The position numbers and the translations under genes are program-made. Below, piece after piece: positions 2,838-34,141 of a stretch of DNA of 64,000 nt. The stretch lies in NCBI RefSeq assembly GCF_030013595.1, contig NZ_CP122768.1. One strand, given 5' to 3'. This stretch comes from Escherichia coli. GTDB lineage: Bacteria; Pseudomonadota; Gammaproteobacteria; Enterobacterales; Enterobacteriaceae. Position 1 is the stretch's first letter. Each line of letters opens with the position of its first letter. Below the pieces are notes generated by a model. It ran no database searches, was not told the origin of the DNA, and saw only the letters and a program-made list of their open reading frames with translations.

Positions 2838-3149
2838 TTAGCCGGGCTGTGTGCCAGTCTTGCGGGATTTTTGAGAAGACGATGTGTTTTCTGGCCCATC
2901 AGGGGAGAGAGAAGGACTGATCTGCCCAGCAGCCTCATTTGTTTCGTTACTCATCAACCACGTAGTGTATTTTTTAAATTCCGGGTGCATTGTGATTTTC
3001 AGTAAAACCTCCGTTCCCACACCTCGAATACCAGTCTCGTATTGCTTAACCGTACCAACCGCAATACCTATTGAATCCGCGAACTTTGCCTGACTAAGCC
3101 CCTCAGATTCTCGAATTGCTTTTAGCTTCTTTGATATCTCTATTGACAT
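2838..3149 (-). CDS. C: Immunity repressor (P2 C-like, HTH)
   Basis: About 103 aa from MSIEISKKLKAIRESEGLSQAKFADSIGIAVGTVKQYETG; helix-turn-helix; divergent from the early operon. Confidence 0.75.
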   Translation of the reverse strand: MSIEISKKLKAIRESEGLSQAKFADSIGIAVGTVKQYETGIRGVGTEVLLKITMHPEFKKYTTWLMSNETNEAAGQISPSLSPDGPENTSSSQKSRKTGTQPG

Positions 3150-3244
3150 GGTGTGCACCTGAATACTATATTGGTTATCAGTTGAGTACCACTTGACACT
3201 ACAAAGAGCCACAAATAGCACCAGATTGAATAGGTTATCACACC

Positions 3245-3523
3245 ATGGCAAAAGTCCTTAACACATACGAACAAGCGGATTTTGAGCGTTTGGCGGCGTT
3301 CTACCCATACCGTAATGAACATGGGCTACCGGTACTTGAAGAAAGCCTGGAGGATTATGCGAAACGCACAAATCAAAGCATTCTCGCTGTAAGAAGGCAG
3401 GCTGATAGATCGGTAATTCCCGTTACTCAAGAAGGAAGAAACACAAAACGCAAAGTAAATCTCTTCGCAATTTTCCTGAAAACCATCAGAAACGCAGAGA
3501 AATACGTGCAAATGACAAAATAA
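3245..3523 (+). CDS. First early-operon gene, putative Cox/Apl-like regulator
   Basis: 92-aa ORF divergent from the repressor, positionally equivalent to P2 cox; no clear sequence match recalled. Confidence 0.45.
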   Translation: MAKVLNTYEQADFERLAAFYPYRNEHGLPVLEESLEDYAKRTNQSILAVRRQADRSVIPVTQEGRNTKRKVNLFAIFLKTIRNAEKYVQMTK

Positions 3524-3537
3524 CGAGGTGTCATTTT

Positions 3538-3876
3538 ATGCTGAAGCAACGCCGTAATTTTTGTACCGGAACAGAACGCCACGCTAACCGTTTCACTACC
3601 AGTGCATCACGCAGCAACATCCGCTACAGCCTGAGTGATACACACGCAACGCCGGATGGCTACCCAGTAAAACAAATCGGCGAGCACGCCTGGCTGATTG
3701 AGAAAGCTGGAATCGTGATCCACAAATGCCCACGCAATCCGTTTACCGGAAACCGCATTTTTGCACTGAGCTGTGGCGACAATCAGTTCGGGCAGGATTT
3801 CACATTATACGAAGCACTTCGCACGGTTGATCGTCTGCTTCGCGGGCAAAGTTTTATTAAACAGGCTGATTTATAA
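3538..3876 (+). CDS. Hypothetical early protein
   Basis: ORF with GAGGTG ribosome-binding site. Confidence 0.5.
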   Translation: MLKQRRNFCTGTERHANRFTTSASRSNIRYSLSDTHATPDGYPVKQIGEHAWLIEKAGIVIHKCPRNPFTGNRIFALSCGDNQFGQDFTLYEALRTVDRLLRGQSFIKQADL

Positions 3877-9821: not shown

Positions 9822-10154
9822 ATGCAACACATTGACAGAGAAAAAGCGCAGCGACTGATTGAGCGGATGGAAGCGCTGGCGAAAGAAGAAAATGTCAACA
9901 TCCAAAAAATAGCTGAATGTGGCCAGATAGTTCTTCGTCGTGAAAAAGACCTCAAACAACTGATGTCTGGCGAAACCAGCAAAACATGGACTTCAGGCGA
10001 GGAGACGATTTATTGCAGCTTCTGCAATAAATCTCAGTACGAAGTCACAAAGGTGATTGCCGGACCGTCTGTTTACATCTGCAATGAGTGCGTGGATTTG
10101 TGCAATGAAATTATCAGGAGAGAAGTGACAGACAAAAAGGGAAAAAACGCATGA
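9822..10154 (+). CDS. Small protein with a C-terminal ClpX-type C4 zinc-binding domain
   Basis: [39 protein letters not shown] closely parallels the ClpX N-terminal zinc-binding domain ([40 protein letters not shown]); no AAA+ module follows. Confidence 0.7.
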
Positions 10155-10489
10155 ACAGAAAACAAAAACAAGAGTTGAAATACTTTTTACGTAAAGAAAT
10201 TGCCAGGCTTGAAGATGCAGAATCACAATCATCAGAAATTCCGTTCGGAATGGATATCAACGACGCCCGTATGCTCCAGGCATACCGCATAGCTCAGGCT
10301 GCACTACAGGCAAAACCGTCAGATGGACTGGTTAGAGCAGTACGATTCTATGAACTGGTAAAGCGTGAGAATCCGCCAGCCGAAACCGGAGCATGGAAAG
10401 ACGCTGTTGACTGGGTACTCAAAGAGGCTTGTCAGGTTGTAAACACTGGCATCAAAGGAGACCTAGCCCAGCCTGCATCAAAGCTATAG
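10151..10489 (+). CDS. Hypothetical protein translationally coupled to the ClpX-ZBD gene
   Basis: ATGA overlap with upstream stop; 112 aa, no recognised domain. Confidence 0.5.
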
Positions 10490-10498
10490 AAATGAGCC

Positions 10499-10527
10499 AA
10501 AACGCCCTCTTCCAGGGCGTTTATTTC
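10499..10527 (+). terminator. Rho-independent terminator after the accessory genes
   Basis: GC stem AACGCCCT/AGGGCGTT followed by a T-rich tract. Confidence 0.55.
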
Positions 10528-10980
10528 AATGCACAATAGTGCACAAATTTGCACAATTTTTTTGAACGAATTTTTGCCCTTCCGGCCCGCGTGACAGTTG
10601 GATCCGTCAAGGATCCGTGCGTGCACAAAAAAACGCGCTTTTTCTGCGCGCAGGTGACGGGGGAACAGCCCGCGTTTCAGGGGGTAAATAGCATTCCCTG
10701 AACGATGTCGCAGAGATACAACAGAATGGCTGTATTTCTCACGCTGAGCGTGAAAAAGATGTGAGGGCTTTTGATTTGATGGGGTGAAAGGTAAGGCCGT
10801 CAAAATCGCACTGAGGCGGCGAGAACATACAGTCAACGCGGTAGGATTGCGTAAGAGTCTGACCGTCGATGGTGGCGATAAACTGGAAGGCGTCGTGAAA
10901 TTATCTGATTGATACAGGAGCTGGAGAGTCGGGGCATAAATTTTTTATGCCCCGGCGAAGCAGCAGACAAGCGAAGCGCG

Positions 10981-19211: not shown

Positions 19212-19839
19212 GGCATTCACCCGCGTGGATGAAACCTTTGAGGCCATCCGCGACAGCCTGAATCAGCAGGCCATCAATAACATCGCCAGAAAGCTGGCAC
19301 AGGATTTACGCCGCGCCCAGCAGGCGCGTATCCGGTCACAGAAAGCGCCGGACGGGACCGCGTGGACACCACGCAGACGCCGCGTAACCCGGATACAGGA
19401 GCGCATTCGCTTTATCTGGAATAACGAAGCACGCACGCTGAAAAACTGGCATCACGACACGGGGAAATACGGGCGAACCATTACCGGGTGGGATGAGGAT
19501 AAAAACAATATCCGCACGTTTTACCGGGATGACATCGACCGTTTTCTGGAAATACGCACCCGGCGCATCAACCAGGACAGCACAAAGCGCGTCCCCATGT
19601 TCGTAAAACTGCGCACCGCCCGCTACCTGAAAGCCCGTGCAGATGCTTCCGGTGTGACGGTGGGTTACAGCGGCGTGGCCGCACGTATTGCCCGCGTTCA
19701 TCAGTTCGGTGAGCGCGATCAGGTTGCGCCGGGCATTTTCACCGATTACCCGGTACGTGAGCTGCTGGGTATCAGCCAGGCAGATGAGCGCCTGATTTAT
19801 AACACGGTGCTGGGCCGGATTGCGGAGGCTGTACGGTGA
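19195..19839 (+). CDS. S: Tail completion/virion morphogenesis protein (P2 gpS-like)
   Basis: Position between R and V; longer than P2 S. Confidence 0.7.
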   Translation: MKAMDKAFTRVDETFEAIRDSLNQQAINNIARKLAQDLRRAQQARIRSQKAPDGTAWTPRRRRVTRIQERIRFIWNNEARTLKNWHHDTGKYGRTITGWDEDKNNIRTFYRDDIDRFLEIRTRRINQDSTKRVPMFVKLRTARYLKARADASGVTVGYSGVAARIARVHQFGERDQVAPGIFTDYPVRELLGISQADERLIYNTVLGRIAEAVR

Positions 19840-22189: not shown

Positions 22190-24781
22190 ATGAGTACCAC
22201 AACACGAAAATTTAAAACCATTATCACTGATACTGGTGCCAAAAAATTAGCTCAGGCAGCCGCGCCAGATGGTAATCCTGTCCGCCTGACTCACATGGCC
22301 GTGGGCGACGGTGGCGGCACGTTGCCCACACCAGACAGTAAGCAGACCCGTCTGGTGCATGAGGTGTGGCGACATACTGTTAATCGCGTCATCCTGGACG
22401 CAACACATCAGAACCGCATTATTGCGGAGCTGGTTATTCCTCCTGAAACGGGCGGATTCTGGATCCGGGAAATTGGTGTATTTGATGAGCACGGCGATTT
22501 GATCGCGGTGGGCAATACTGCGGAAAGTTACAAGCCAGCCGTTGCCGAAGGATCCGGACGTGTACAAACATTTCGCACCATTCTGACCGTATCCAGCACT
22601 GCCACCGTGGCGCTTACCGTGGATAACACCATGGTTATGGCCACAGTGGATTACGTGAATGACAAACTGAAAGAACATGAACAGTCACGACGTCACCCGG
22701 ACGCCTCGCTGACCGCAAAAGGCTTTGTTCAACTCAGTAGCGCCACCAACAGCACGTCTGAAACACTGGCCGCAACGCCGAAAGCGGTAAAGGCCGCGTA
22801 TGACCTTGCTAACGGGAAATATACCGCACAGGACGCCACCATAGCGCGAAAAGGCCTTGTCCAGCTCAGTAGTGCCACCAACAGCACGTCTGAAACGCTC
22901 GCCGCAACGCCGAAAGCGGTAAAGGCAGCATATGACCTTGCTAACGGGAAATACACTGCACAGGACGCCACCACAACGCGAAAAGGCCTTGTTCAGCTCA
23001 GTAGCGCCACCAACAGTGATTCTGAAACGCTTGCGGCAACGCCAAAGGCGGTAAAGGCAGCATATGACCTTGCTAACGGGAAATACACTGCACAGGACGC
23101 CACCACAGCGCGAAAAGGTCTTGTCCAGCTCAGTAGCGCCACCAACAGCACGTCTGAAGCATTGGCCGCAACACCGAAAGCGGTAAAGGCCGCGTATGAC
23201 CTTGCTAACGGGAAATACACTGCACAGGACGCCACCACAGCGCGAAAAGGTCTTGTCCAGCTCAGTAGCGTCACCAACAGCGATTCTGAAACGCTTGCGG
23301 CAACGCCAAAGGCGGTAAAGGCCGCGTATAACCTTGCTAACGGGAAATACACTGCACAGGATGCCACTACAGCGCGAAAAGGTCTTGTCCAGCTCAGTAG
23401 CGTCACCAACAGTGATTCTGAAACGCTGGCCGCAACATCAAAAGCGGTGAAGTCTGCCTATGACAATGCTGAAAAACGCCTTCAGAAAGATCAGAACGGT
23501 GCGGATATTCCGGGAAAGGATACCTTCACGAAAAATATCGGTGCCTGTCGTGCTTATAGCGGCGCTTTGAGCACTGAAGCCGGAAACTGGACAACCGCTC
23601 AGTTTATTGAATGGCTGGATTCCCGTGGTGCATTTAATCATCCGTACTGGATGTGCAAAGGCTCATGGTCATATGCAAATAACAAAATCATTACGGATAC
23701 CGGATGTGGTGATATCCACCTGGCTGGTTGTGTCGTCGAGGTCATGGGAACTAAATCTGCAATCACTATCCGAGTAACCACGCCGACAACATCAAGTGGT
23801 GGCGGTACAACCAGCGCACAATTCACTTACATTAATCATGGGGGCGGCTACTTCCCCGGCTGGCGTCGTGACTGGAATCGTCAGGGCGACTCAATGACCG
23901 GAACGATTAATCAGGATGGCGGAAGCCAGAATGCCTATATGTCTACGGCCTTATGTTCAGGCACCAGAGGCGGCAAAAAATATCTCAGAAAGTTTCGTGG
24001 TGGAGAAGGAGATACTATCTGGCATGAAACAGTACAGGGCGGGGTAATTCGCTGGGCGACAGGAAACTATGACGCTCAGGAAGAATTATCACTCAGCTCC
24101 GCTTATGGTCTCCGTTCAAGAGGTGAGATTACATCACTCAGTGCTAATGGTCTGCGCATTGCTTATGGCAATTATGGATTCTTTATCAGGAATGATGGCG
24201 GCAGCACATATTTAATGCTGACGGCCTCTGGCGATAAATTTGGGACATGGAACGGCTTAAGACCGCTGACTATCAATAACGCCAATGGCGGAGTGTCAAT
24301 GGGGCATGGCCTGAGTGTTACAGGTGATATTGTCTCAAGTACCAAAGTACGTGCCGGTAGCGGGAAAAAGTTCACGGTCAGCAGCAGCAATACATCCACG
24401 AAGGAAGCCGCATTCAATTTGTGGGGAAACGCAAGTCGTCCGGTGGTGGCTGAATTAGGTGATGATGCAGGCTGGCATTTTTACAGTCAGAGAAATACAG
24501 ATAACAGCATCACTTTTGCTGTTAACGGGCAGGTATCACCATCTAACTATGGCAACTTTGATTCACGCTATGTCCGGGATATTAGACTTGGTGGCGCGTC
24601 ATCCTATAAACCAGCAAATAACGGGACAACATGGACGCATCAGGCTCCATCTGGTTGCGCATATACCGGGATTATCGTTCAGGATACAGGCTCAAACTCT
24701 GCCGATAATATTGGTGGTGTTTATTACAGACCAATTCAAAAAAATATTAATGGTACATGGTATAACGTATCGAGTGTTTGA
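22190..24781 (+). CDS. H: Tail fiber protein (P2 gpH-like) with expanded internal repeats
   Basis: Conserved gpH N-terminus, then about 5.5 tandem 44-aa repeats and a distal receptor-binding region. Confidence 0.85.
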   Translation: MSTTTRKFKTIITDTGAKKLAQAAAPDGNPVRLTHMAVGDGGGTLPTPDSKQTRLVHEVWRHTVNRVILDATHQNRIIAELVIPPETGGFWIREIGVFDEHGDLIAVGNTAESYKPAVAEGSGRVQTFRTILTVSSTATVALTVDNTMVMATVDYVNDKLKEHEQSRRHPDASLTAKGFVQLSSATNSTSETLAATPKAVKAAYDLANGKYTAQDATIARKGLVQLSSATNSTSETLAATPKAVKAAYDLANGKYTAQDATTTRKGLVQLSSATNSDSETLAATPKAVKAAYDLANGKYTAQDATTARKGLVQLSSATNSTSEALAATPKAVKAAYDLANGKYTAQDATTARKGLVQLSSVTNSDSETLAATPKAVKAAYNLANGKYTAQDATTARKGLVQLSSVTNSDSETLAATSKAVKSAYDNAEKRLQKDQNGADIPGKDTFTKNIGACRAYSGALSTEAGNWTTAQFIEWLDSRGAFNHPYWMCKGSWSYANNKIITDTGCGDIHLAGCVVEVMGTKSAITIRVTTPTTSSGGGTTSAQFTYINHGGGYFPGWRRDWNRQGDSMTGTINQDGGSQNAYMSTALCSGTRGGKKYLRKFRGGEGDTIWHETVQGGVIRWATGNYDAQEELSLSSAYGLRSRGEITSLSANGLRIAYGNYGFFIRNDGGSTYLMLTASGDKFGTWNGLRPLTINNANGGVSMGHGLSVTGDIVSSTKVRAGSGKKFTVSSSNTSTKEAAFNLWGNASRPVVAELGDDAGWHFYSQRNTDNSITFAVNGQVSPSNYGNFDSRYVRDIRLGGASSYKPANNGTTWTHQAPSGCAYTGIIVQDTGSNSADNIGGVYYRPIQKNINGTWYNVSSV
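22715..23460 (+). repeat. Tandem in-frame 132-bp repeats (about 5.5 copies) inside the tail fiber gene
   Basis: Unit encodes RKGLVQLSSATNSxSETLAATPKAVKAAYDLANGKYTAQDATTA; copies near-identical at DNA level. Confidence 0.85.
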
Positions 24782-25385: not shown

Positions 25386-25880
25386 TCAGAACAGTCCCTT
25401 AACAGAACTGACCGCACTGTTAAGGGATGACGCCACCTTATCTTTGAAGCCGGACAGCATATCGCTGAACGATGAGGATTGCAGGCGCTCCCGCAAATCC
25501 TCATCACAGCGTTCAAGGGTCAGTGAAAATTCTATCTTTTTCGCCTTACCGTAGCGATCAAACTCGGAACGGGTCGTATTCGTTTCAGTCAGCACATACA
25601 TGCCGTAAATCTGCCCGACACCATCAATCAGAGGCCAGGGGCGTCCTGTATATGCCTGCGTGGTCAGCAACGAAAGCGACACTTCGCCACCTGTAATTTC
25701 AGGATAAAGCACGCCGGAAAGCACAATGCGATCATCACCTGCACCTATATACTGCCAGCTTGCTGAACGGTTAACGCGTTCATTTTTTACATGCCGCCAG
25801 CTTTTGTTTTGCTGTAACTGCTGATGCGGCAGTGTGCGCAGCTCAAAAACAAACATGCCGTAGATCATCATCATGGCCAT
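25386..25880 (-). CDS. U: Tail protein U (P2 gpU)
   Basis: MMIYGMFVF...QQLQ...SW N-terminus resembles P2 U. Confidence 0.85.
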   Translation of the reverse strand: MAMMMIYGMFVFELRTLPHQQLQQNKSWRHVKNERVNRSASWQYIGAGDDRIVLSGVLYPEITGGEVSLSLLTTQAYTGRPWPLIDGVGQIYGMYVLTETNTTRSEFDRYGKAKKIEFSLTLERCDEDLRERLQSSSFSDMLSGFKDKVASSLNSAVSSVKGLF

Positions 25881-25886
25881 GACTCC

Positions 25887-28703
25887 TCAATCTTTATCGT
25901 AAAAACTGCCACGTCCGGCACGGGCGCGCCGTTCCATCTCTGCCCTGACCATTTCACCGACCAGTTTCGCCAGTTCGCGGGGATTCTGCGTAACAACGTT
26001 ATGCAGATGAACATGAATTTCACCGCCAAACCCGGAGGCAACAGGCTCCCGGTTACGGAAAGTTGCAGGAACTGATGCCACTGGAGAGCGTATGGCCTCC
26101 GCCACCGGGCGGGAGCTGGCCGCAACAACAGGGACCAGCGCCGGAGGCAGCGGAGCCGGGACCACGGGTGTGATATTAATTGCGGGGGCAGGCTTACTGA
26201 CCTGCGCAATCTTCCGCTCCTGCCACTCCCCACGAACAGCAAGTGCGCGGGGCAGGTTCTTAAAGACAATATCGCCGGGGCCAATGCGTTTTTTCGTCTC
26301 ATCAACCAGCTTACCTGTGTTATCAGCAATTTTGCTGAGTCTGCGTAGCGTACCGGTATTGCTGTCTGTGAGCGGTTTGTTGTCTTTGGGCTTATCACCT
26401 CCGGTGCCATTGCCATTTTCCACAGGCTTCGGCGGATTGATTTTCGCCAGGTCCCCCTGAAGCAAGGCAACCTTGTCCTGAAGAATGGCCGCACGCTGTG
26501 CGTCTTCGATTTTCTTGCGCGCCCTTTCCGCTTCATCCGGAAGCACACCGAGCTTTTCAAGTATCCACGCCAGCGTATCCAGCAACATTTTTGCAGGTGT
26601 CAGAACAAGTTGTAACGCACCGCCAAGAACGTTACCGAATATCTCGCCAGCACTGGTACATTTATCCAGCGTTTCCTTGCTGGACTCCATCGGTGACAGC
26701 AGCGATTTAAACCAGTTAAACACCTGGCTGATCCCGCTTCCGATTGCGTCAAAAACAGGACCAAACCGTTCAAAGGTTTCGCGCAACGGGGTCAGCCTTT
26801 CCATAATCCCGCTGAACACTCCGGCAAAAAATGCCCTGATGGGATCCCAGTATTTCCAGATAAGAACGGCAGCTCCGGCAAGCGCAGCCACAATAAGACC
26901 AACCGGACTGAACAACGCCCCGATAGCGCCTCCCAGTAAAGAAACAGAACCCGTCACCATTCCCCACAGCGCAGGCAACACCCTGACGACATTCATTGAC
27001 CGGGTCAGGATGTCAAAACCAAGACGCAGGGTGGCCAGCTTCCCGTAAAGCACCCCAATAACCAGCGACAACGAGCCAATCGTTGCAGTCATTGCCAGCA
27101 ACGCACCGCCTGCTATCAGTAGCTGGCGCGTCAGTACCGGATGGGCCTGCGCCAGCGAGGTGATTTTTTCAAGCACCCGCGTGAACCACTGCGTGACAAA
27201 ACGCAGCGGACCGTCAACCAGATCACTGATGCGAATACGAAGACCTTCCCATGCGCTGTCGAGATTTTTCAGGTCCCCATCAAGATTATCGGCCATTACT
27301 TTTGCAACGCGATCGGCCTCTCCCCTTGCCCCCTGCAATTCTCTGGTCAGTTTTTGCAGCTCTCCTGAACCAGCCGCCGCAACAAGCGTCTGCAAACCAA
27401 CGAACGCCTCTTCTCCGGCGATGTCCTTGAAGAAGGAGACCTGGTCCACCTGTCCGTATTTTTGTGTCGCCTTATAGAGATCAAGCAGCACATCCTCCAT
27501 CGGGCGCATTTTGCCTCTGGCGTCAGCAACTGACACCCCAAGCTCTTTCAGCGCATCAGCCGCAGCTTTTGGCGGTGATGCAAGGCGGGACAGACTTGCG
27601 CGCATGGCCGTACCAGCATCGCTTCCACGAAGACCATTATTGGCAAGCATCCCGGCCATGGCTGCCGCTTCTTCAAGACTGATACCAAGTTTTGCGGCAA
27701 CCGGACCGGTATACTTCATGGTTTCGCCCAGCGCGCGTAAATCAGTATTGGTCCGGGTGAATGCCGCTGTCAGCGTATCGCCAACCCGGTCCATTTGATC
27801 GGCTGTCAGGTTGAACTGTGTGAGGATATTGGAGCCTATATCAGCCGTCTCGCCGAGTTCGACGCCACCTGCCAGCGCCATATTAAGAACACCGGGCAAT
27901 GCGGCCTGAATGGCCTGCGGAGTAAAACCAGCCATTGCCAGAAAGCTCTGCCCACTGGCGGCATCACTCGCAGTAAACTGTGTTTCAGAGCCAAGTTTTA
28001 ACGCCTGCTCACGCAGCGCCTTAAACTGCGGGCTGTTTTTGTCGATTCGCGTCAGTGCCTGAACGCGGGACATCTCTTTGCCGAACCCGATCGCAGGCTG
28101 CAAAAAACGCCCGGCAGCATAGCCGCCCGCCGCTGCCGCACCAATTGCCAGCGCACCACCTGTTTTCAGTTTTCCCGCTGTTTCCTGCGCGCGCGAATAC
28201 CGCTCACGCGCCCGCGTTACACGCGCAAGCGCCTGCCGTTCGCGTTCAAGCTGGTTGTTGTACTGTTCGGTGCGTCTGATGGCCTGCTGGATGGTGTTAT
28301 CGCTGCCTGTCAGGGAAATGCCGTGGCGTTTCAGCTCTCCGCCAAGCTCCCGCATTTTCTGAATTTCCCGTGTGCGCGATTCATTCAGGCGTTCAAGCCG
28401 GGTGCTTAACTGCTGCATCAGCTTTTGTTGTTTTTCGCTGAGCACTGTACCCGTGCGTTGTAACTGATTAAGGGCGTTAAGCTGGCGTCGTGCTTTCAAT
28501 ATGCCAGCATCCGCTTTACTGACAGCGTCACGGGCGCGCTCAAATGAACGCGCCTGACGCTCGAGATTTTTGATCGCCCCCTGCGTTCGCTGGATGGAGT
28601 CACCAAGCTGCCCCATCAGGCGGCGGGCGTTTTCGGCAGGCCGGGTCAACCTGTCAACGGCGCTGAAAGCGACCCGGATATCAAGAGTCTTCATTATCTG
28701 CAT
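25887..28703 (-). CDS. T: Tail tape measure protein (P2 gpT)
   Basis: 938-aa protein, helical with a central hydrophobic glycine-rich segment; between E and U. Confidence 0.85.
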   Translation of the reverse strand: MQIMKTLDIRVAFSAVDRLTRPAENARRLMGQLGDSIQRTQGAIKNLERQARSFERARDAVSKADAGILKARRQLNALNQLQRTGTVLSEKQQKLMQQLSTRLERLNESRTREIQKMRELGGELKRHGISLTGSDNTIQQAIRRTEQYNNQLERERQALARVTRARERYSRAQETAGKLKTGGALAIGAAAAGGYAAGRFLQPAIGFGKEMSRVQALTRIDKNSPQFKALREQALKLGSETQFTASDAASGQSFLAMAGFTPQAIQAALPGVLNMALAGGVELGETADIGSNILTQFNLTADQMDRVGDTLTAAFTRTNTDLRALGETMKYTGPVAAKLGISLEEAAAMAGMLANNGLRGSDAGTAMRASLSRLASPPKAAADALKELGVSVADARGKMRPMEDVLLDLYKATQKYGQVDQVSFFKDIAGEEAFVGLQTLVAAAGSGELQKLTRELQGARGEADRVAKVMADNLDGDLKNLDSAWEGLRIRISDLVDGPLRFVTQWFTRVLEKITSLAQAHPVLTRQLLIAGGALLAMTATIGSLSLVIGVLYGKLATLRLGFDILTRSMNVVRVLPALWGMVTGSVSLLGGAIGALFSPVGLIVAALAGAAVLIWKYWDPIRAFFAGVFSGIMERLTPLRETFERFGPVFDAIGSGISQVFNWFKSLLSPMESSKETLDKCTSAGEIFGNVLGGALQLVLTPAKMLLDTLAWILEKLGVLPDEAERARKKIEDAQRAAILQDKVALLQGDLAKINPPKPVENGNGTGGDKPKDNKPLTDSNTGTLRRLSKIADNTGKLVDETKKRIGPGDIVFKNLPRALAVRGEWQERKIAQVSKPAPAINITPVVPAPLPPALVPVVAASSRPVAEAIRSPVASVPATFRNREPVASGFGGEIHVHLHNVVTQNPRELAKLVGEMVRAEMERRARAGRGSFYDKD

Positions 28704-29219
28704 TCCCGCTGCGAAGTGCCGCCCGCTCGCGCCAGCTAACCACTTCGCCGGGCGTCATCATGAAGATTTCGGCGGGCGACCAGTTAAAAATGGCGGCAAT
28801 ATCCGCCACCAGATCTTCGATGTGCTCAAAGCACACCAGGGTGATTACGCTGCCGTCTCCTGCACGCTCTTCGCGCCAGAGTCTGGCTCGCTCATAAAAT
28901 TTACAGCCACAGCGCACAACTGAATAAAATCGCGTGACGACATTTTTTTAATCATCACTTCATCCAGTCGTGGCGAGGTCACGCGAGGCAACAGCGTGAA
29001 CATGGTATCCGCTTTCAGATTCAGCACATCAGACAGCGACAGACCACGCAGGGATCCAGCCTGCTCAATAGCCCCGGTGATCTCCACATACGTGATTTTT
29101 TCGCCACCACGCTCAATTGGTCGGGTCAGTTTTACGCCACGTTCGACAGCCATATCCTCACCTGCCGTCACATCATCCGCCACGGTGTTATTCCGGGTTT
29201 CAGTATCGATGTCTTTCAT
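28681..29219 (-). CDS. E+E': E+E' fusion produced by programmed -1 frameshift
   Basis: A7 tract (plus-strand T7 at about 28943-28949); the -1 frame continues into the 28681-28917 ORF, as in P2 E/E' and lambda G/GT. Confidence 0.65.
28845..29219 (-). CDS. E: Tail assembly chaperone E (zero-frame product)
   Basis: ORF upstream of T containing an A7 slippery run; exact start uncertain. Confidence 0.7.
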   Translation of the reverse strand: MKDIDTETRNNTVADDVTAGEDMAVERGVKLTRPIERGGEKITYVEITGAIEQAGSLRGLSLSDVLNLKADTMFTLLPRVTSPRLDEVMIKKMSSRDFIQLCAVAVNFMSEPDSGAKSVQETAA

Positions 29220-29274
29220 CAGTTGTCTCCTTTTCAGTCAGAGGCGACGCACTGCGCCGCCTGCATATTATTTA

Positions 29275-29787
29275 TCAGCCAAGCCCAAGCGCGGAACGGA
29301 TACGGTCAGGCACAATGTCCTTGCCGTCCTTCCGGTAGATGTGGTTCAACAGGTCGATTTCCCACAGCGGGCGATCGTTAACGCTCAGCTTGTAGTAGGT
29401 GTTTTTGACAGCGTAAGTGTGTGATGTGGCTTCGCCCTGTTTGGCTTCCCCCATATCAATTTCCGTCACACGCCCGCGCATCTCGATTTCATACAGATCA
29501 CTTTCTGCATCGGTGTAGTATTCACCCGCAAAACGCAGCAGCGTGCCGTCAATCGTGCCGCCATATTTAAGGAACAGCGCACGAACAGCTCCCCCCATAA
29601 CAAAACTCGCATCAAGCGCGGAGTCGTCCAGACCGAGATCAATACTTACCGCCCCCATCATGCCACCACCACGATAGCTGTCGGTTTTGCGCGTCAGTTT
29701 GGGCGGCGTGACGGATGTCACTTTACCCACTTCGTTTTCACCATCCACAAACAACGTAAAAAAGCGAAGATGTTTTGGTACAGCCAT
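29275..29787 (-). CDS. FII: Tail tube protein (P2 gpFII)
   Basis: 170 aa, directly downstream of the sheath gene. Confidence 0.85.
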   Translation of the reverse strand: MAVPKHLRFFTLFVDGENEVGKVTSVTPPKLTRKTDSYRGGGMMGAVSIDLGLDDSALDASFVMGGAVRALFLKYGGTIDGTLLRFAGEYYTDAESDLYEIEMRGRVTEIDMGEAKQGEATSHTYAVKNTYYKLSVNDRPLWEIDLLNHIYRKDGKDIVPDRIRSALGLG

Positions 29788-30971
29788 CAGACACCTCCCA
29801 GCACCGCAAATGCGGGACCAAAGAATTCATCAGTAAACGTCTGGTAAAGCTCCATGTCTTCCAGTGGCGGAACGGGCGTATATTTGTAGCGAATACGCAC
29901 ACGTCCCTGACGTAAATCCGTGGTGCCGTTATCCACCACGTCATACCAGCACTCCGCACCAATCAGTTTCCCGGCAGTAACCAGCGAATCCAGTTTTGCT
30001 CTGATGGCACTGATAACATCCTTCACGTTCGCAGGCGTCAGTGGACTGTCGATGGTTTCAAACTGCGCTTCCGCAATTGAATCAGCCAGCACCTGTGCGG
30101 TTCGGGTATACACCTCAAAGATGTAGGCGTTCGTTTCCGGTGTGCGGTTGCCCCAGAAGCGGAACCCGTTGCGACGAATAATGGTCGTGATTTCTTTGTT
30201 GTTGAGGCTGTTGGCATCACTGTCTTCAGCCTGCAACGACCAGAACACATGCCTCGACATCCCCAGCACATTTTTAACCGGAACGTTGGACAGCGATTTG
30301 TGCCAGCCCTGCTCATGGTCAATGTACGCACGAAGGCCGCACGCATAGGCAGGCGCGGGGAACGTTTCGTTTTCGCCACTTTTCGGGTTGTAGGCGATGA
30401 AGTCCGGCCACAAGAGCATCACCTCACGTTCGTTGAATTTCTGGCGGTAGGTAATCGCTTCAGCCATCGTGTTACAGCCGTGACATGCGGCATACACAAA
30501 CGCGCGCAGTTTACCCGCAATCACGCACAGGGATTTTGTCACCGCCTCCGTGTCCAGCTCCGGCGCGGCCAGAATACGCGGACGGTATCCGATGCTTTCA
30601 TCCTGCTCTGCAACAAGCAGCGCATACATCCCCGTATAGCTGCCGTCATCCTCAGAACCACCGATAACCAGTTGATCCTGCGTCTTACCGTCTTCTTCTT
30701 TGTGTTCAGCCACGCGAACGACGATCACCTTTGTGCTCACCTGGTCTGCGATGGCCTTAAGCGCACGATAAAGCGTCCCCGTTGTTCCGCATTTTCCCAG
30801 CACGTCATTGACGCGGGTCAGCAGTGTGGGCTTGTTCAGCGGGAACAGCTTCGCGTCCGCATCATCCGCCGTTGCCACGATACCGATAACGCTGGAATCA
30901 ACATCGTTAATCGCTGTTACCAGGTCGGTATTTTCCGTAACACGGGCACCATGAAAACGAGTTTCACTCAT
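29787..30971 (-). CDS. FI: Tail sheath protein (P2 gpFI)
   Basis: 394 aa with conserved sheath blocks (GFRFWGNRT, YTRTAQV, YKYTPVPPLE). Confidence 0.9.
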   Translation of the reverse strand: MSETRFHGARVTENTDLVTAINDVDSSVIGIVATADDADAKLFPLNKPTLLTRVNDVLGKCGTTGTLYRALKAIADQVSTKVIVVRVAEHKEEDGKTQDQLVIGGSEDDGSYTGMYALLVAEQDESIGYRPRILAAPELDTEAVTKSLCVIAGKLRAFVYAACHGCNTMAEAITYRQKFNEREVMLLWPDFIAYNPKSGENETFPAPAYACGLRAYIDHEQGWHKSLSNVPVKNVLGMSRHVFWSLQAEDSDANSLNNKEITTIIRRNGFRFWGNRTPETNAYIFEVYTRTAQVLADSIAEAQFETIDSPLTPANVKDVISAIRAKLDSLVTAGKLIGAECWYDVVDNGTTDLRQGRVRIRYKYTPVPPLEDMELYQTFTDEFFGPAFAVLGGV

Positions 30972-31128
30972 AGCTTCAGCCCCTTGTATCCGTTAAATGA
31001 TTCGGCAACAATCATCACCCACCACGCGCGTAATCTCACCCCTGCGCCGTTCTCCCGACCCAGCGACAACAAAAAGCAGTAACCCCCTCCGCACGCACAT
31101 GCGACCATGCCGCACAGGGAGGGAACAG

Positions 31129-32232
31129 ATGACCGACACCACCATGCAATTGCTCAGTCAGGGCACAGACCCCGTGAAAATGCCGGATTTTGATATTCTT
31201 GCGGAGGGTAAAACGCTGTCAGGCGTGGCAGAGCGCCTGATGAGCCTGTCACTGACCGACAACCGGGGATTTGAGGCGGACCAGCTCACCATCACGCTGG
31301 ATGATGCGGATGGTCAGTTGCAGCTACCGCCACGGGGCGCGCGCCTGACGGTTCTCATTGGCTGGAAAGGAGAACCGCTGACAGAAAAAGGCACTTACAT
31401 TGTTGATGAAATCGCTCACGAAGGACCGCCGGACAGGCTGACAGTTTCAGCCAGAAGCGCAGATTTTCGGGATGAATTTAACGTTAAACGTGAGGTGTCC
31501 TGGCATGATGTGACCGTTGAGCGTGTGGTATCCGCCATCGCTCATCGGTATGGTCTGAAATCGCAAATCAGCGAAATGCTGATGGATATTGAAATCGACC
31601 ACGCCGACCAGACCGAAGAAAGCGACATGTCCTTCCTTACGCGCATGGCGGAAATGCTGGGCGCAATCACTACGGTAAAAAGCGGTAATCTGTTATTCAT
31701 TATGCCAGGCGGTGGCGTGAACGCGCAGGGCCAGCCGTTGCCCTCGTTCGCCATCACACGCAGCAGCGGCGATCGCCATCAGTTCCGCATTGCTGACCGA
31801 GAGGCGTATACGGGGGTACGCGCTTACTGGCTTGATCTTAATTACGGGAAAAAGAAAAAAGTCAGCGTGAAACGCCGTAAACCGCCAAAACCCAAAAAGG
31901 AGAAAAGCAGCAGCCGTGAAGGTGATTATATGGAAGGCGCGGAAGGCAATGTGTTTGTGTTACGCAAGACTTATCAGAACGAGCAGGCAGCAAGACGCGC
32001 AGCGGCGGCAAAGTGGCAGCAGCTACAACGCGGAGCCGCAGCGTTCTCCATCACATTGGCACGTGGACGCGCAGAACTCTACCCCGAAATGCATGGCACG
32101 GTAACAGGCTTTAAAAGCGAGATTGATAATCAGGACTGGATTATTGCGAAAGCCGAGCACACCATTGATAACAGCGGCTTTACCACGCAGCTTGAGCTTG
32201 AGGCAAAAATCCCGGAATGGATAGCAGAATGA
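31129..32232 (+). CDS. D: Tail protein D (P2 gpD, late control gene D family)
   Basis: Start at MTDTTMQLL with AGGGAGGG ribosome-binding site; size and position as P2 D. Confidence 0.8.
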   Translation: MTDTTMQLLSQGTDPVKMPDFDILAEGKTLSGVAERLMSLSLTDNRGFEADQLTITLDDADGQLQLPPRGARLTVLIGWKGEPLTEKGTYIVDEIAHEGPPDRLTVSARSADFRDEFNVKREVSWHDVTVERVVSAIAHRYGLKSQISEMLMDIEIDHADQTEESDMSFLTRMAEMLGAITTVKSGNLLFIMPGGGVNAQGQPLPSFAITRSSGDRHQFRIADREAYTGVRAYWLDLNYGKKKKVSVKRRKPPKPKKEKSSSREGDYMEGAEGNVFVLRKTYQNEQAARRAAAAKWQQLQRGAAAFSITLARGRAELYPEMHGTVTGFKSEIDNQDWIIAKAEHTIDNSGFTTQLELEAKIPEWIAE

Positions 32233-32396: not shown

Positions 32397-33032
32397 TTAG
32401 CGAGCTAATATATTCAAAGAATTTAACAATTGAGTGTCGAGTGTTTCAGTTGCAGGAATCGGTAATCCATTCGCAATGCGGTAATTTTTCACAGACAGCC
32501 TTGTGGATGGCCCCATTATGCCGTCAATATTTCCGTTATAAAATCCCCTGTCCAGCAATGCGAACTGAACTCGCATAATCAATCGCTTACGTTTCTCTGC
32601 ATCAGAAGCAAGCCCATTACTCGTACGGTTAACCTCTGAAGTTCCAACAGAACTCGTGTTAGTGGTTCTATTATTATCGTTAGAACGAAGTGCACGCACC
32701 GAGGAAGAGGACGATGAGGAACTTGCACCTGAACTTGAAGAACCAGATGAACTTGGTGAGCTGTATGTTTTTGGATAATAGGGGGTACTTCCACCATAGT
32801 ATCCACCACCTGATGAGGATCTATGAGAGCTATGGCTCCTATGAGAACTATGGCTTCGATGCCCTGCGATATAAAATGGGACTTCCGTGTTAAGTGGAGC
32901 TATCACTAAATCATGCTCATTAAGAGTCATACCAGGTAAATCACTCGCTCCTGTAGATGAATCGCTTGCCCATACAGAATTGTTGAGAGCCAAAAATCCC
33001 GGAAGTAGAGCAGCAAAATTAAACTTTTTCAT
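32397..33032 (-). CDS. hxsA: His-Xaa-Ser repeat protein HxsA: secreted precursor with Gly/Ser/Tyr-rich linker and C-terminal peptidoglycan-binding domain
   Basis: Signal peptide MKKFNFAALLPGFLALNNSVWA; HRSHSSHRSHSSHRS repeats; C-terminus LLDRGFYNGNIDGIMGPSTRLSVKNYRIANGLP resembles PG_binding_1; ATGA overlap with hxsC. Confidence 0.8.
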   Translation of the reverse strand: MKKFNFAALLPGFLALNNSVWASDSSTGASDLPGMTLNEHDLVIAPLNTEVPFYIAGHRSHSSHRSHSSHRSSSGGGYYGGSTPYYPKTYSSPSSSGSSSSGASSSSSSSSVRALRSNDNNRTTNTSSVGTSEVNRTSNGLASDAEKRKRLIMRVQFALLDRGFYNGNIDGIMGPSTRLSVKNYRIANGLPIPATETLDTQLLNSLNILAR

Positions 33033-34141
33033 AAAATTGGTCTCGGTGATTGATGAAAACGGCCTTTTGAGGAACTGAAATAGCCAGCACAGGAAGGCTT
33101 CTGAGTACATTCATCACATTCTTTTGGATAGTAATTTTTCCAATCAGAGATCGACTGAACAGCAAGCTCCCTAGCCCTTTCAGGAAGATAACACAAAGGA
33201 TAATTAAAAATTGTCAGAGGTATGCCTGACCTGTATGCAGCGTCTATGGCAGAGATTATTTTCTCACTATAACTACTGTGATCAATGAAGATGGTGGACC
33301 AGTTTTTTCGTGCCCAACCGATAGGCTCCAACCCCATAAGGGAAATCTGATTGATGTTGGAGAACACACGGCCAGCGAATTCTACGATATCATCCAATTC
33401 GGTATAGTTAGCCAGTGTAGGAATAACTCTAAGTTCGATATTAATCCCCAAGTTTCCTGCATTGATTAACCCTTTAACCGTTTCATTAAATGCGCCATCA
33501 CTCCCTACCAGATGATCATGCACAAGTGGTCTTGATGAGTAGAGCGGGATACCAAAGGTGATTTTGATCTTTTTGCTTCGCTTTGCCATTTCCTGTGTAA
33601 AGTTGGTATCAGCAAATTTGCGTCCGTTTGTTAAAACATGTAAAGCAGTATCTGGTGAATTCTCGATGATAAAATCAATGAAGTGAAGGAAGTCATCCCC
33701 ATATAGCAAAGGTTCACCACCGCTGACCCCAACAACTCCGTTCAAGCCAAATGAAGCTATAGCAAGAGCTGATTGGGTAAGTAGCCAGTCATCATTTATT
33801 TTCTTTGGTGGCTGCGAACAAAACAGACACAAGTTATTGCAGCGTTCCGTAACTAAGACAGTATTATGATTGGCTTTGCGTGACAGAATAACGCGTATCA
33901 TATTGCCATTGTTGATTATCCCAATATCTCCATCTTCAATTGACTCAAATAATTCAGTGCTAATAACAGAGAAATCAAAGCATGGTGGAATGGCATCATT
34001 ATTGCCTTCAGCAACTACTAGCAAATTGGGCAAAAAGAATAAAGGGTTCACTGGTTTTTGTTTGCATAACCGATAGAACCCCGTGGGCACGTTCTCTGTA
34101 GAAGCAAAATGAAAGATATCGTTCCTGATAACCTCAGACAT
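33029..34141 (-). CDS. hxsC: Radical SAM maturase (HxsC-type assignment; B/C assignment tentative)
   Basis: CNNLCLFC (Cx3Cx2C) radical-SAM cluster motif; C-terminal CDEC...C cluster; overlaps both neighbours. Confidence 0.8.
   Translation of the reverse strand: MSEVIRNDIFHFASTENVPTGFYRLCKQKPVNPLFFLPNLLVVAEGNNDAIPPCFDFSVISTELFESIEDGDIGIINNGNMIRVILSRKANHNTVLVTERCNNLCLFCSQPPKKINDDWLLTQSALAIASFGLNGVVGVSGGEPLLYGDDFLHFIDFIIENSPDTALHVLTNGRKFADTNFTQEMAKRSKKIKITFGIPLYSSRPLVHDHLVGSDGAFNETVKGLINAGNLGINIELRVIPTLANYTELDDIVEFAGRVFSNINQISLMGLEPIGWARKNWSTIFIDHSSYSEKIISAIDAAYRSGIPLTIFNYPLCYLPERARELAVQSISDWKNYYPKECDECTQKPSCAGYFSSSKGRFHQSPRPIL

What the first reader, a model, noticed from the sequence alone, without database searches (positions are those of the whole stretch)
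28681..29219. Programmed -1 frameshift site for the E / E+E' tail chaperone pair
Seen in sequence: the E reading frame contains an A7 run (plus-strand T7 at about 28943-28949, codons ATT AAA AAA ATG) and the -1 frame from that point is open for a further 87 codons, ending at 28681 just before T. Established knowledge: P2 E/E' and lambda G/GT use the same mechanism.
Basis: partly seen in the sequence, partly recalled or inferred. Interest (0 to 1): 0.3.

Follow-up and report, generated by a model that had tools for sequence, protein, structure and literature searches.

The report
P2-type tail chaperone frameshift, relocated site

Summary
ATT AAA AAA ATG lies at 28952-28941 on the minus strand, with A7 at 28949-28943. 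The -1 frame is open for 87 further codons, to the TGA at 28683-28681. That frame codes: it carries Pfam PF06528 (Phage_P2_GpE, E 7e-12), and the fusion is collinear with P2 E+E' (E 1e-28). The gene sits between the tube and tape-measure genes of a P88-like (Xuanwuvirus) prophage in E. coli.

The A7 assignment is not supported.
- Across 63 haplotypes, the only conserved slippery element is the T-run at the invariant x-Phe-Leu codons, which is P2's T_TTT_TTG.
- Here that position reads GTA AAT TTT ATG. T6G is lost, but the canonical heptamer A_AAT_TTT (28902-28896) remains.
- The A7 is out of phase (U_AAA_AAA_A).
- In phage P88 and all 52 T6-type relatives, a -1 stop follows the A7 five codons later.
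- Between A7 and the T-run, variation is synonymous in frame 0 (14 synonymous, 3 not) and not in frame -1 (2 synonymous, 15 not). The codon periodicity flips at the T-run.

Verdict: a known mechanism in a new member with a variant heptamer. Public annotation gives E' as a separate 51-aa ORF or omits it. Interest is low.

The parts
28845..29219 (-). Gene E: tail assembly chaperone, gpE homologue, 124 aa. GGAG Shine-Dalgarno at 29230-29227, stop TAA at 28847-28845.
   Evidence: ORF list. phrog_103 E 1e-36. PF10109 Phage_TAC_7 is weak: 20.6 bits, below the cutoff of 25. Aligns with P2 gpE and 14 other homologues with 20 invariant columns.
28896..28902 (-). Proposed slippery heptamer A_AAT_TTT, covering zero-frame codons GT[A AAT TTT] ATG. 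It sits at the position homologous to the P2 T_TTT_TTG site.
   Evidence: It falls on the invariant Phe of the x-F-L motif. P88-type relatives read A_AAT_TTT_TTG at the same place. AAAUUUU is frameshift-prone in E. coli reporters: 0.07 / 0.36 / 11.4 % (PMC4066793 Table S3).
28681..28896 (-). E' extension read in the -1 frame after the slip: 71 sense codons (YERARLWREERAGDGS...NADNEDS) plus TGA. E+E' = join(29219..28896, 28896..28681), 179 aa.
   Evidence: Translation. The -1 frame is conserved from the first codon after the T-run; R119, G121, G123, T127 and F131 are nearly invariant. Codon periodicity switches to the -1 frame here.
28702..28809 (-). Pfam PF06528 (Phage_P2_GpE) domain within E', fusion residues 138-173.
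   Evidence: hmmscan E 7.4e-12, 45 bits against a cutoff of 23.
28943..28949 (-). Phase is U_AAA_AAA_A, so it is only an A_AA.A tetramer motif.
   Evidence: The tetramer A_AA.A is the weakest of the six effective tetramers in E. coli (PMC4066793). Some public assemblies carry A8 here, giving a fused ORF.
28948..28950 (-). TAA stop in the -1 frame. It marks the upstream limit of the open -1 frame in this lineage.
28899..28946 (-). Segment between the A7 and the T-run: 16 codons, KMSSRDFIQLCAVAVN in frame 0. It encodes the conserved C-terminal helix of the E domain. The -1 frame is open here but unconstrained.
   Evidence: The -1 frame carries stops here in the majority of the 63 haplotypes; frame-0 identity is at least the -1 identity in all but one haplotype. 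Within T4 haplotypes, frame 0 takes 14 synonymous and 3 non-synonymous variants, frame -1 takes 2 and 15. The AF2 helix 95-111 lies in blocks with mean pLDDT of about 84-88.
28848..28895 (-). True dual-coding overlap: 16 codons. Frame 0 is the E tail MSEPDSGAKSVQETAA; frame -1 is the start of E'.
   Evidence: The -1 frame is more conserved than frame 0 in relatives. Polymorphism is greatest at frame-0 position 2, which is the -1 wobble.
25887..28694 (-). Tape measure gene T. The start ATG at 28694 overlaps the E' stop by 14 nt; an alternative ATG lies at 28703.
   Evidence: PF10145 E 1.6e-56. PGAP uses this start in the 100 % identical locus.
29275..29787 (-). Tail tube gene (FII homologue), immediately upstream of E.
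   Evidence: PF04985 E 2e-45.

Best explanation
Gene E (28845-29219, minus strand) encodes the tail assembly chaperone of a P88-like, P2-related prophage. Most ribosomes finish E at 124 aa. A minority slip back one base and make the 179-aa fusion E+E'. Its C-terminal 71 residues come from the -1 frame and end 14 nt inside the tape-measure gene.

The slip most likely occurs on A_AAT_TTT (28902-28896). There tRNA-Asn and tRNA-Phe re-pair from AAU-UUU to AAA-UUU. This is the same codon position as P2's proven T_TTT_TTG site, and no RNA stimulator is detectable.

By analogy with lambda G/GT and P2 E/E+E', the shared E domain would bind the tape measure, and the E' domain would recruit the tube protein.

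Shown here: gene order, homology of both frames, the conserved position of the slippery T-run, and the switch of coding constraint at that point. Inferred: that slippage actually happens here, how efficiently, and what the proteins bind.
For: **The -1 frame codes and is homologous to P2 E+E'**
- The -1 frame carries PF06528 and phrog_1756.
- The fusion built with the T-run junction aligns collinearly with P2 E+E' through the junction: 33 % identity over 153 aa, E 1e-28.
- The P2 RefSeq record places the -1 shift at GGT TTT TTG.

**The T-run is the conserved slippery element**
- In all 63 distinct haplotypes from IMG/VR, P88 and P2, a slippery T-run sits on the invariant Phe codon, 24 to 63 nt before the E stop: T_TTT_TTG/A/T, often with C_CCT_TTT or A_AAT_TTT.
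- The literature describes T6G, T7G and T7C as the conserved site of P2-like phages, without downstream structure (PMC3091744; PMC3931495).

**Coding constraint switches at the T-run**
- Before it, diversity peaks at the frame-0 wobble (pi 0.286).
- After it, diversity peaks at the -1 wobble (pi 0.189).
- The same holds within the 50 T4-type haplotypes.

**The heptamer is plausible in E. coli**
- A_AAU_UUU is at least as shift-prone as U_UUU_UUG in E. coli reporters with stimulators: 0.355 against 0.247 %, and 11.4 against 0.77 %.

**A viable phage carries the same site**
- The record named Citrobacter phage Shae_phiSM carries exactly the window's site.
- PhiSM of C. rodentium is a plaque-forming temperate phage (PMC6456863).
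Against: - The family's hallmark T6G is absent here (TTT ATG). Without a stimulator, AAAUUUU gave only 0.07 % in reporters, against a background of about 0.055 %.
- No stimulatory structure was found downstream (z -0.46 and -1.74).
- In this sublineage the -1 frame is open back to the A7 in 59 of 62 distinct contexts, so an upstream slip is not excluded.
- No protein-level data exist for this lineage.
Confidence: 0.75

Rival explanations
1. One reading: the -1 slip happens on the A7 run (28949-28943). tRNA-Lys slides from AAA to the overlapping AAA, giving ...MIKK-NVVTRFYSVVRCGCKFYERARLW... (also 179 aa).
For: - The -1 frame is open from exactly this point, and in 59 of 62 distinct T4-type contexts.
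- Lys-tRNA(UUU) is intrinsically shifty, and A7 runs are under-represented in E. coli genes (PMC4066793).
- A8 variants in public assemblies encode exactly this fusion.
Against: - The phase is U_AAA_AAA_A, not X_XXY_YYZ. Only the tetramer A_AA.A applies, the weakest effective one and at background without a pseudoknot.
- No downstream structure (z +1.16).
- The Lys-Lys codons are not conserved outside the clade.
- In P88, Chuche and all 52 T6-type contexts, a TGA follows five codons later.
- Near-identical relatives L027 and L031 acquired the same stop through a synonymous CGC-to-CGT change.
- The -1 frame of this segment takes 15 non-synonymous and 2 synonymous variants.
- The product would lose the conserved C-terminal helix of the E domain, including invariant D97, L101 and F108.
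Confidence: 0.07
2. Both sites are used in this sublineage. A_AAT_TTT is the main site and the A7 is a minor or back-up site, by ribosomal or RNA-polymerase slippage. The result would be two 179-aa isoforms differing in 16 residues.
For: - Loss of T6G co-occurs with an open -1 frame from the A7: T4+open 59, T4+closed 3, T6+closed 52, T6+open 0.
- The mosaic L082 combines P88-like flanks with T4 and an open frame.
Against: - The association is most simply two clades with linked variants.
- T4+closed haplotypes exist.
- The -1 frame of the intervening segment shows no purifying selection.
- A 16-codon open stretch is expected by chance about 46 % of the time, (61/64)^16.
Confidence: 0.1
3. E' is a separate small protein started at its own codon, as PGAP annotates it: GTG at 28836, 51 aa, 'GpE family phage tail protein'.
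For: RefSeq and GenBank annotate it this way in the 100 % identical E. coli locus and in P88.
Against: - No Shine-Dalgarno sequence lies within 5-12 nt of GTG 28836; the nearest GGAG is 20 nt upstream (sequence).
- The -1 frame is conserved for 21 codons upstream of that GTG, with nearly invariant R119, G121, G123 and T127.
- Periodicity flips at the T-run, not at the GTG.
- In P2, E' lacks a ribosome binding site and is made as an extension of E (PMC3931495 summarising Christie 2002; RefSeq join).
Confidence: 0.04
4. The prophage is decaying and no functional E+E' is made. On this view, the loss of T6G is a lesion.
For: - Some relatives carry obvious lesions in E' (L064 premature stop, L080 frameshift).
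- In the 100 % identical E. coli locus the D gene is truncated.
Against: - The same site is present in the record named for plaque-forming phage phiSM.
- 50 distinct T4 haplotypes keep E' intact and under -1-frame constraint.
- All tail genes in the window are full-length ORFs.
Confidence: 0.04

Closest known systems
Bacteriophage P2 gpE / gpE+E' (Christie et al. 2002, J Bacteriol 184:6522; RefSeq NC_001895 join at 19685)
   Same: - Gene order tube - E - E' - T.
- A -1 extension overlapping the start of T.
- E' carries PF06528.
- The fusion is collinear with P2's: 33 % identity, E 1e-28.
- The slip position falls on the same Phe codon.
- No downstream RNA structure.
   Different: - The heptamer is A_AAT_TTT(A) instead of T_TTT_TTG.
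- E is 124 aa against 91. It has an N-terminal extension and a 16-residue tail after the slip site, against 6 in P2.
- E+E' is 179 aa against 142.
- Gene D lies on the opposite strand.
Phage P88 and other Xuanwuvirus (Peduoviridae)
   Same: - 84.5 to 99.4 % nucleotide identity over this region.
- Identical module layout.
- The A7 and the A_AAT_TTT heptamer are both present.
   Different: - P88-type genomes also keep T_TTT_TTG (AAT TTT TTG).
- They have a -1 TGA between the A7 and the T-run.
- The window/phiSM type has TTT ATG and an open frame back to the A7.
Lambda gpG / gpGT and the conserved tail-chaperone frameshift of long-tailed phages (Levin 1993; Xu, Hendrix & Duda 2004)
   Same: - Two overlapping ORFs between the major tail gene and the tape-measure gene.
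[quoted passage not shown]
- Neither product is expected in virions.
   Different: - No sequence similarity was tested or is expected.
- Lambda uses G_GGA_AAG.
- P2-like efficiency is reported as 2-3 fold higher (PMC5009743).
P2-like phages of Burkholderia (KS5, KS14, KL3) and Stenotrophomonas/Xanthomonas (Smp131)
   Same: An E/E+E' arrangement with a T-run slip site and no predicted hairpin.
   Different: Those phages keep T6G, T7G or T7C. This lineage has shortened the run to T4, preceded by A3.

Membership tests
P2 gpE / gpE+E' tail assembly chaperone pair | Located between the tail tube gene and the tape measure gene | tested here: met
   Tube PF04985 at 29275-29787; tape measure PF10145 at 25887-28694/28703.
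P2 gpE / gpE+E' tail assembly chaperone pair | Upstream ORF homologous to gpE | tested here: met
   16-sequence alignment including P2 gpE with 20 invariant columns. blastp of the fusions E 1e-28. phrog_103 E 1e-36. Pfam PF10109 is only 20.6 bits, below its cutoff.
P2 gpE / gpE+E' tail assembly chaperone pair | -1 frame extension homologous to E' (PF06528) that overlaps the start of T | tested here: met
   PF06528 at 45 bits against a cutoff of 23. The E' stop at 28683-28681 lies inside T (start 28694).
P2 gpE / gpE+E' tail assembly chaperone pair | Conserved T6G (T_TTT_TTG) slippery sequence on the x-Phe-Leu codons | tested here: not met
   The window reads GTA AAT TTT ATG (T4, Leu to Met). 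Every haplotype outside the window-type group of 16 keeps a run of six or more T at the site.
P2 gpE / gpE+E' tail assembly chaperone pair | A canonical X_XXY_YYZ heptamer in the E/E' overlap, at the homologous codon | tested here: met
   A_AAT_TTT at 28902-28896 is the only in-phase heptamer in the overlap.
P2 gpE / gpE+E' tail assembly chaperone pair | E' has no ribosome binding site or conserved start of its own | tested here: met
   No Shine-Dalgarno within 5-12 nt of GTG 28836. -1 frame conservation extends 21 codons upstream of it.
P2 gpE / gpE+E' tail assembly chaperone pair | Fusion protein actually produced and required for tail assembly | not testable with these tools
   Needs mass spectrometry, a reporter assay or genetics. 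The only indirect support is that plaque-forming phiSM is the phage for which a record with the identical site is named.
A-run (dnaX / IS-type) -1 frameshift signal, A_AAA_AAG/A with stimulators | A-run in phase A_AAA_AAN | tested here: not met
   The phase is U_AAA_AAA_A.
A-run (dnaX / IS-type) -1 frameshift signal, A_AAA_AAG/A with stimulators | Downstream stem-loop or pseudoknot, or an upstream Shine-Dalgarno-like stimulator | tested here: not met
   The 60 nt after the A7 fold at -10.6 kcal/mol, z +1.16. No GGAGG-like element upstream.
A-run (dnaX / IS-type) -1 frameshift signal, A_AAA_AAG/A with stimulators | The -1 frame downstream of the run is conserved and open in relatives | tested here: not met
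   Stops within 16 codons in the majority of the 63 haplotypes. All 52 T6-type contexts are closed.

The most novel reading that the evidence does not exclude
The phiSM/window sublineage lost the ancestral T_TTT_TTG. Frameshifting may now be shared between a weakened A_AAT_TTT site and the upstream A7 run, by ribosomal or RNA-polymerase slippage. That would give two E+E' isoforms, and would be a slip site caught in the act of migrating. The near-perfect association between T6G loss and an open -1 frame from the A7 (59:3 against 0:52) is what leaves room for this reading.
Probability: 0.1. Interest if true: 0.4.

Novelty: new member of a known kind. Interest (0 to 1): 0.2.

Why it matters
**Annotation**
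- This chaperone pair occurs in about a quarter of complete E. coli genomes: 1369 of 5426 have a match.
- In every record I inspected the E' part is called a stand-alone 51-aa protein, a 'tail fiber protein', or nothing.
- The correct description is a single slippage join at 28896.

**Recoding**
- A sublineage that includes the record named for plaque-forming phage phiSM lacks the T6G site treated as the hallmark of P2-like phages.
- There it is replaced by A_AAU_UUU at the same codon.

**Method**
- The most eye-catching homopolymer in an overlap is not necessarily the slip site.
- Phase, homology and frame-specific constraint decide.

Tried and rejected
- **RNA stimulators.** I folded 60-80 nt downstream of both candidate sites, and downstream of the P2 and P88 sites. 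None was better than shuffles (z -0.46, +1.16, -1.74, +0.18, +0.28). No stimulator is claimed.
- **Motif enrichment.** A7 occurs 19 times against 21 expected, and AAATTTT 23 times against 19. Both are at chance, so motif presence alone carries no weight.
- **NCBIfam.** No hit for E or for the fusion.
- **Solved structures.** The PDB sequence search found nothing relevant: best hit bL28m, E 0.31.
- **Fold search.** The AF2 model has mean pLDDT 68. Foldseek against PDB gave nothing with E below 0.2. BFVD gave only predicted 'tape measure chaperone' and 'tail assembly chaperone' hits at E 2e-3 to 8e-2. These agree with the chaperone reading but are weak.
- **The primary P2 paper.** Christie 2002 is not in the held library. 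What I say about it comes from papers citing it and from the RefSeq record.
- **Fused 170-179-aa database proteins.** I considered these as evidence for the A7 junction. They turn out to be A8 or other indel variants in assemblies. That is homopolymer length variation or sequencing error, not evidence of translation.
- **The T4/open association as proof of A7 use.** Rejected as proof, because of phylogenetic linkage and the lack of -1-frame constraint.
Full report
**Observation**

On the minus strand the E reading frame (ATG 29219 to TAA 28847-28845, 124 aa) reads ATT AAA AAA ATG at 28952-28941. The A7 is therefore at 28949-28943.

The -1 frame has a TAA at 28950-28948, inside the run. It is then open until the TGA at 28683-28681.

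'Just before T' needs correcting. E' ends 14 nt inside the tape-measure gene if T starts at ATG 28694, which is PGAP's choice and has GGGA 9 nt upstream.

An A7 alone means nothing here. The window holds 19 such runs against 21.4 +/- 5.9 expected.

**Context**

The locus is the tail module of a P88-like (Xuanwuvirus, Peduoviridae) prophage in an E. coli chromosome.
- It is 100 % identical over 701 nt to E. coli 19AR1724.
- It is 99.4 % identical to Citrobacter phage Shae_phiSM and 84.5 % to phage P88.
- Matches occur in 1369 of 5426 complete E. coli genomes.

The minus-strand gene order is sheath (29787-30971), tube (29275-29787), E, E', tape measure (25887-28694), U (25386-25880). All have strong Pfam hits.

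**Is the -1 frame coding?**

Yes.
- The fusion carries PF06528 Phage_P2_GpE at residues 138-173 (45 bits, cutoff 23, E 7e-12).
- It also matches phrog_1756 (E 2e-38).
- E matches phrog_103, and aligns with P2 gpE and 14 other homologues with 20 invariant columns.

So the general interpretation holds: an E/E+E' chaperone pair linked by a -1 shift.

**Where is the slip?**

P2's RefSeq record places the shift at GGT TTT TTG (T_TTT_TTG), on the Gly-Phe-Leu codons near the end of E. In the protein alignment, Val-x-Phe-Leu is conserved in all homologues and the Phe is invariant. The Lys-Lys encoded by the A7 is not conserved.

I collected 160 related loci from IMG/VR by protein pattern, plus P2 and P88. 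They reduce to 63 distinct haplotypes.
- Every haplotype has a slippery T-run on the invariant Phe codon, 24 to 63 nt before the E stop.
- The run is T_TTT_TTG (or -A, -T), often preceded by C_CCT_TTT or A_AAT_TTT.
- Papers on P2-like phages of Burkholderia and Stenotrophomonas describe the same T6G, T7G or T7C site, and the absence of a downstream hairpin.

The window reads GTA AAT TTT ATG (28904-28893). The T6G is lost through TTG to ATG. The in-phase heptamer A_AAT_TTT (28902-28896) remains, and it is the only canonical X_XXY_YYZ heptamer in the E/E' overlap.

**Against the A7**

- *Phase.* The run is U_AAA_AAA_A, so only the A-site tetramer A_AA.A applies. Sharma et al. 2014 found that tetramer the weakest of six effective ones, and indistinguishable from background without a pseudoknot.
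- *Stops in relatives.* In P88, in the isolate Chuche and in all 52 distinct T6-type contexts, the A7 is present but a -1 TGA follows five codons later (KNGIP*). The A7 therefore cannot produce E+E' in those viable phages (P88 plaque formation). Two near-identical relatives of the window (L027, L031) acquired the same stop through a synonymous CGC-to-CGT change.
- *Frame-specific constraint across relatives.* In the 16 codons between the A7 and the T-run, the majority of the 63 haplotypes carry a -1 stop. Frame-0 identity to the window is at least as high as -1 identity in all but one haplotype. After the T-run the -1 frame is the better conserved.
- *Frame-specific constraint within the clade.* Among 98 haplotypes of the Xuanwuvirus clade, diversity before the T-run peaks at the frame-0 wobble (pi 0.286 against 0.03 at positions 1 and 2). 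After the T-run it peaks at the -1 wobble (0.189).
- *Frame-specific constraint within the window's own type.* Restricting to the 50 T4 haplotypes, variants in the A7-to-T-run segment are 14 synonymous and 3 non-synonymous in frame 0, but 2 and 15 in frame -1. Wobble polymorphism there (10 of 16 sites) is no lower than in the E-only region (34 of 67).
- *Structure.* This segment encodes the long C-terminal helix of the E domain (residues 95-111, mean pLDDT of about 84-88 in those blocks). The helix holds invariant D97, L101 and F108. An A7 shift would replace it with unrelated sequence, whereas P2's E+E' keeps it.

**For A_AAT_TTT**

- It occupies the homologous codon.
- Built with this junction, the fusion is collinear with P2 E+E' through the junction (33 % identity over 153 aa, E 1e-28).
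- Conservation of the -1 frame starts at the very next codon.
- In E. coli reporters, AAAUUUU gives 0.070 / 0.355 / 11.4 % frameshifting with no stimulator, IS911 stimulators and the IS3 pseudoknot. UUUUUUG gives 0.118 / 0.247 / 0.765 %. R_RRU_UUY motifs are singled out there as efficient exceptions.
- The record named Citrobacter phage Shae_phiSM has exactly the window's sequence. PhiSM of C. rodentium forms plaques and lysogens. So this variant site is compatible with a working tail, assuming E+E' is essential as in P2.

**What stays open**

- I found no RNA stimulator at either site. Absolute efficiency is therefore unknown.
- In the window's sublineage the -1 frame is open back to the A7 in 59 of 62 distinct contexts, and in none of the 52 T6-type contexts. 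This is most simply two clades with linked variants. Recombinant combinations exist (L082; a T4-type context carrying the NGIP* stop). Even so, a minor contribution of the A7, ribosomal or transcriptional, cannot be excluded.
- Database proteins of 179 or 176 aa with the junction MIKK-NVVTR come from assemblies with A8. They show homopolymer length variation, not translation.

**Rivals**

- *Independent initiation of E' at PGAP's GTG 28836.* Unlikely. There is no Shine-Dalgarno sequence, -1-frame conservation reaches 21 codons upstream of it, and the periodicity switch is at the T-run.
- *A decayed, non-functional module.* Unlikely, given intact ORFs, -1-frame constraint across 50 haplotypes, and phiSM.

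**Comparison and novelty**

This is a member of the P2 gpE/gpE+E' family by position and by homology of both frames. It works like lambda G/GT. It fails one family hallmark, the T6G heptamer, and replaces it with A_AAU_UUU one codon upstream.

No public record I inspected annotates the slippage. PGAP calls a 51-aa GTG-start 'GpE family phage tail protein'. The P88 record says 'tail fiber protein'. The phiSM record leaves the region empty.

The finding is a known mechanism in a new member with a variant slip heptamer. Interest is low (0.2). The only mildly novel possibility is dual-site or migrating frameshifting, at about 10 %.

Noticed in passing
window 28791-28811 (minus strand): A terminator-like hairpin lies inside the most conserved part of E', upstream of the tape-measure start: TGGTGGCGG-ATA-TTGCCGCCA followed by TTTTT. 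The number of such sites in the region is at chance (2 against 2.4 expected), so it may mean nothing.
   Followed up: partly
window 29242-29262 (minus strand): A 9-bp GC-rich hairpin (AGGCGGCGC-AGU-GCGUCGCCU, -15.7 kcal/mol, z -2.1) sits in the 55-nt gap between the tube gene and E. It has no U-tract. It might be an mRNA stability or processing element that sets the tube:chaperone ratio.
   Followed up: partly
window 22717-23464 (plus strand), within the tail fibre gene 22190-24781: 5.7 tandem copies of a 132-nt unit (89 % matches), corresponding to six Pfam Phage_fiber_2 repeats. This is a length-variable shaft in the tail fibre.
   Followed up: partly
window 30997-32232 (plus strand) against 25386-30971 (minus strand): The gpD-like baseplate hub gene is on the opposite strand to the sheath-tube-E-T-U block, whereas P2 has FI-FII-E-T-U-D co-linear. 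P88 shows the same arrangement, so it is a genus-level arrangement. The ORF listing start at 30997 is probably too far upstream.
   Followed up: partly
L001 (E. coli 19AR1724), locus 3063-3863 and 9944-10543: In the genome that is 100 % identical over the E/E' region, the D gene is truncated to 801 nt. A recombinase-family (invertase-like) gene sits between U and the tail-fibre genes. The window has a full-length D ORF, and no ORF of 40 aa or more lies in the 68-nt gap between U and the tail-fibre assembly gene.
   Followed up: no
window 32397-34141 (minus strand): Just beyond D lie two further ORFs. One is a Ser/His-rich low-complexity protein with a weak PG_binding_1 match (E 2e-4, below cutoff). 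It overlaps a radical SAM protein (PF04055, E 4.5e-12). Whether these are prophage cargo or host genes is unresolved.
   Followed up: no
L165, L166 (Logan assemblies ERR13669365, ERR13868096), locus about 870-878: The A-run is A8 instead of A7, giving a single fused 179-aa E+E' ORF with no separate E. Three database clusters share this MIKK-NVVTR junction and five more are fused through indels elsewhere. Whether these are real indel variants or homopolymer sequencing errors is unknown.
   Followed up: partly
PMC6456863, Fig. 2 legend, against L287 (OR565851): The paper describes phiSM virions as having a long non-contractile, Siphoviridae-like tail. The genome record named phiSM encodes a sheath-length CDS (mislabelled 'late control gene D protein') and a tube protein in a P2-like contractile-tail module. 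This may be a mix-up of the two phages' micrographs or names.
   Followed up: no
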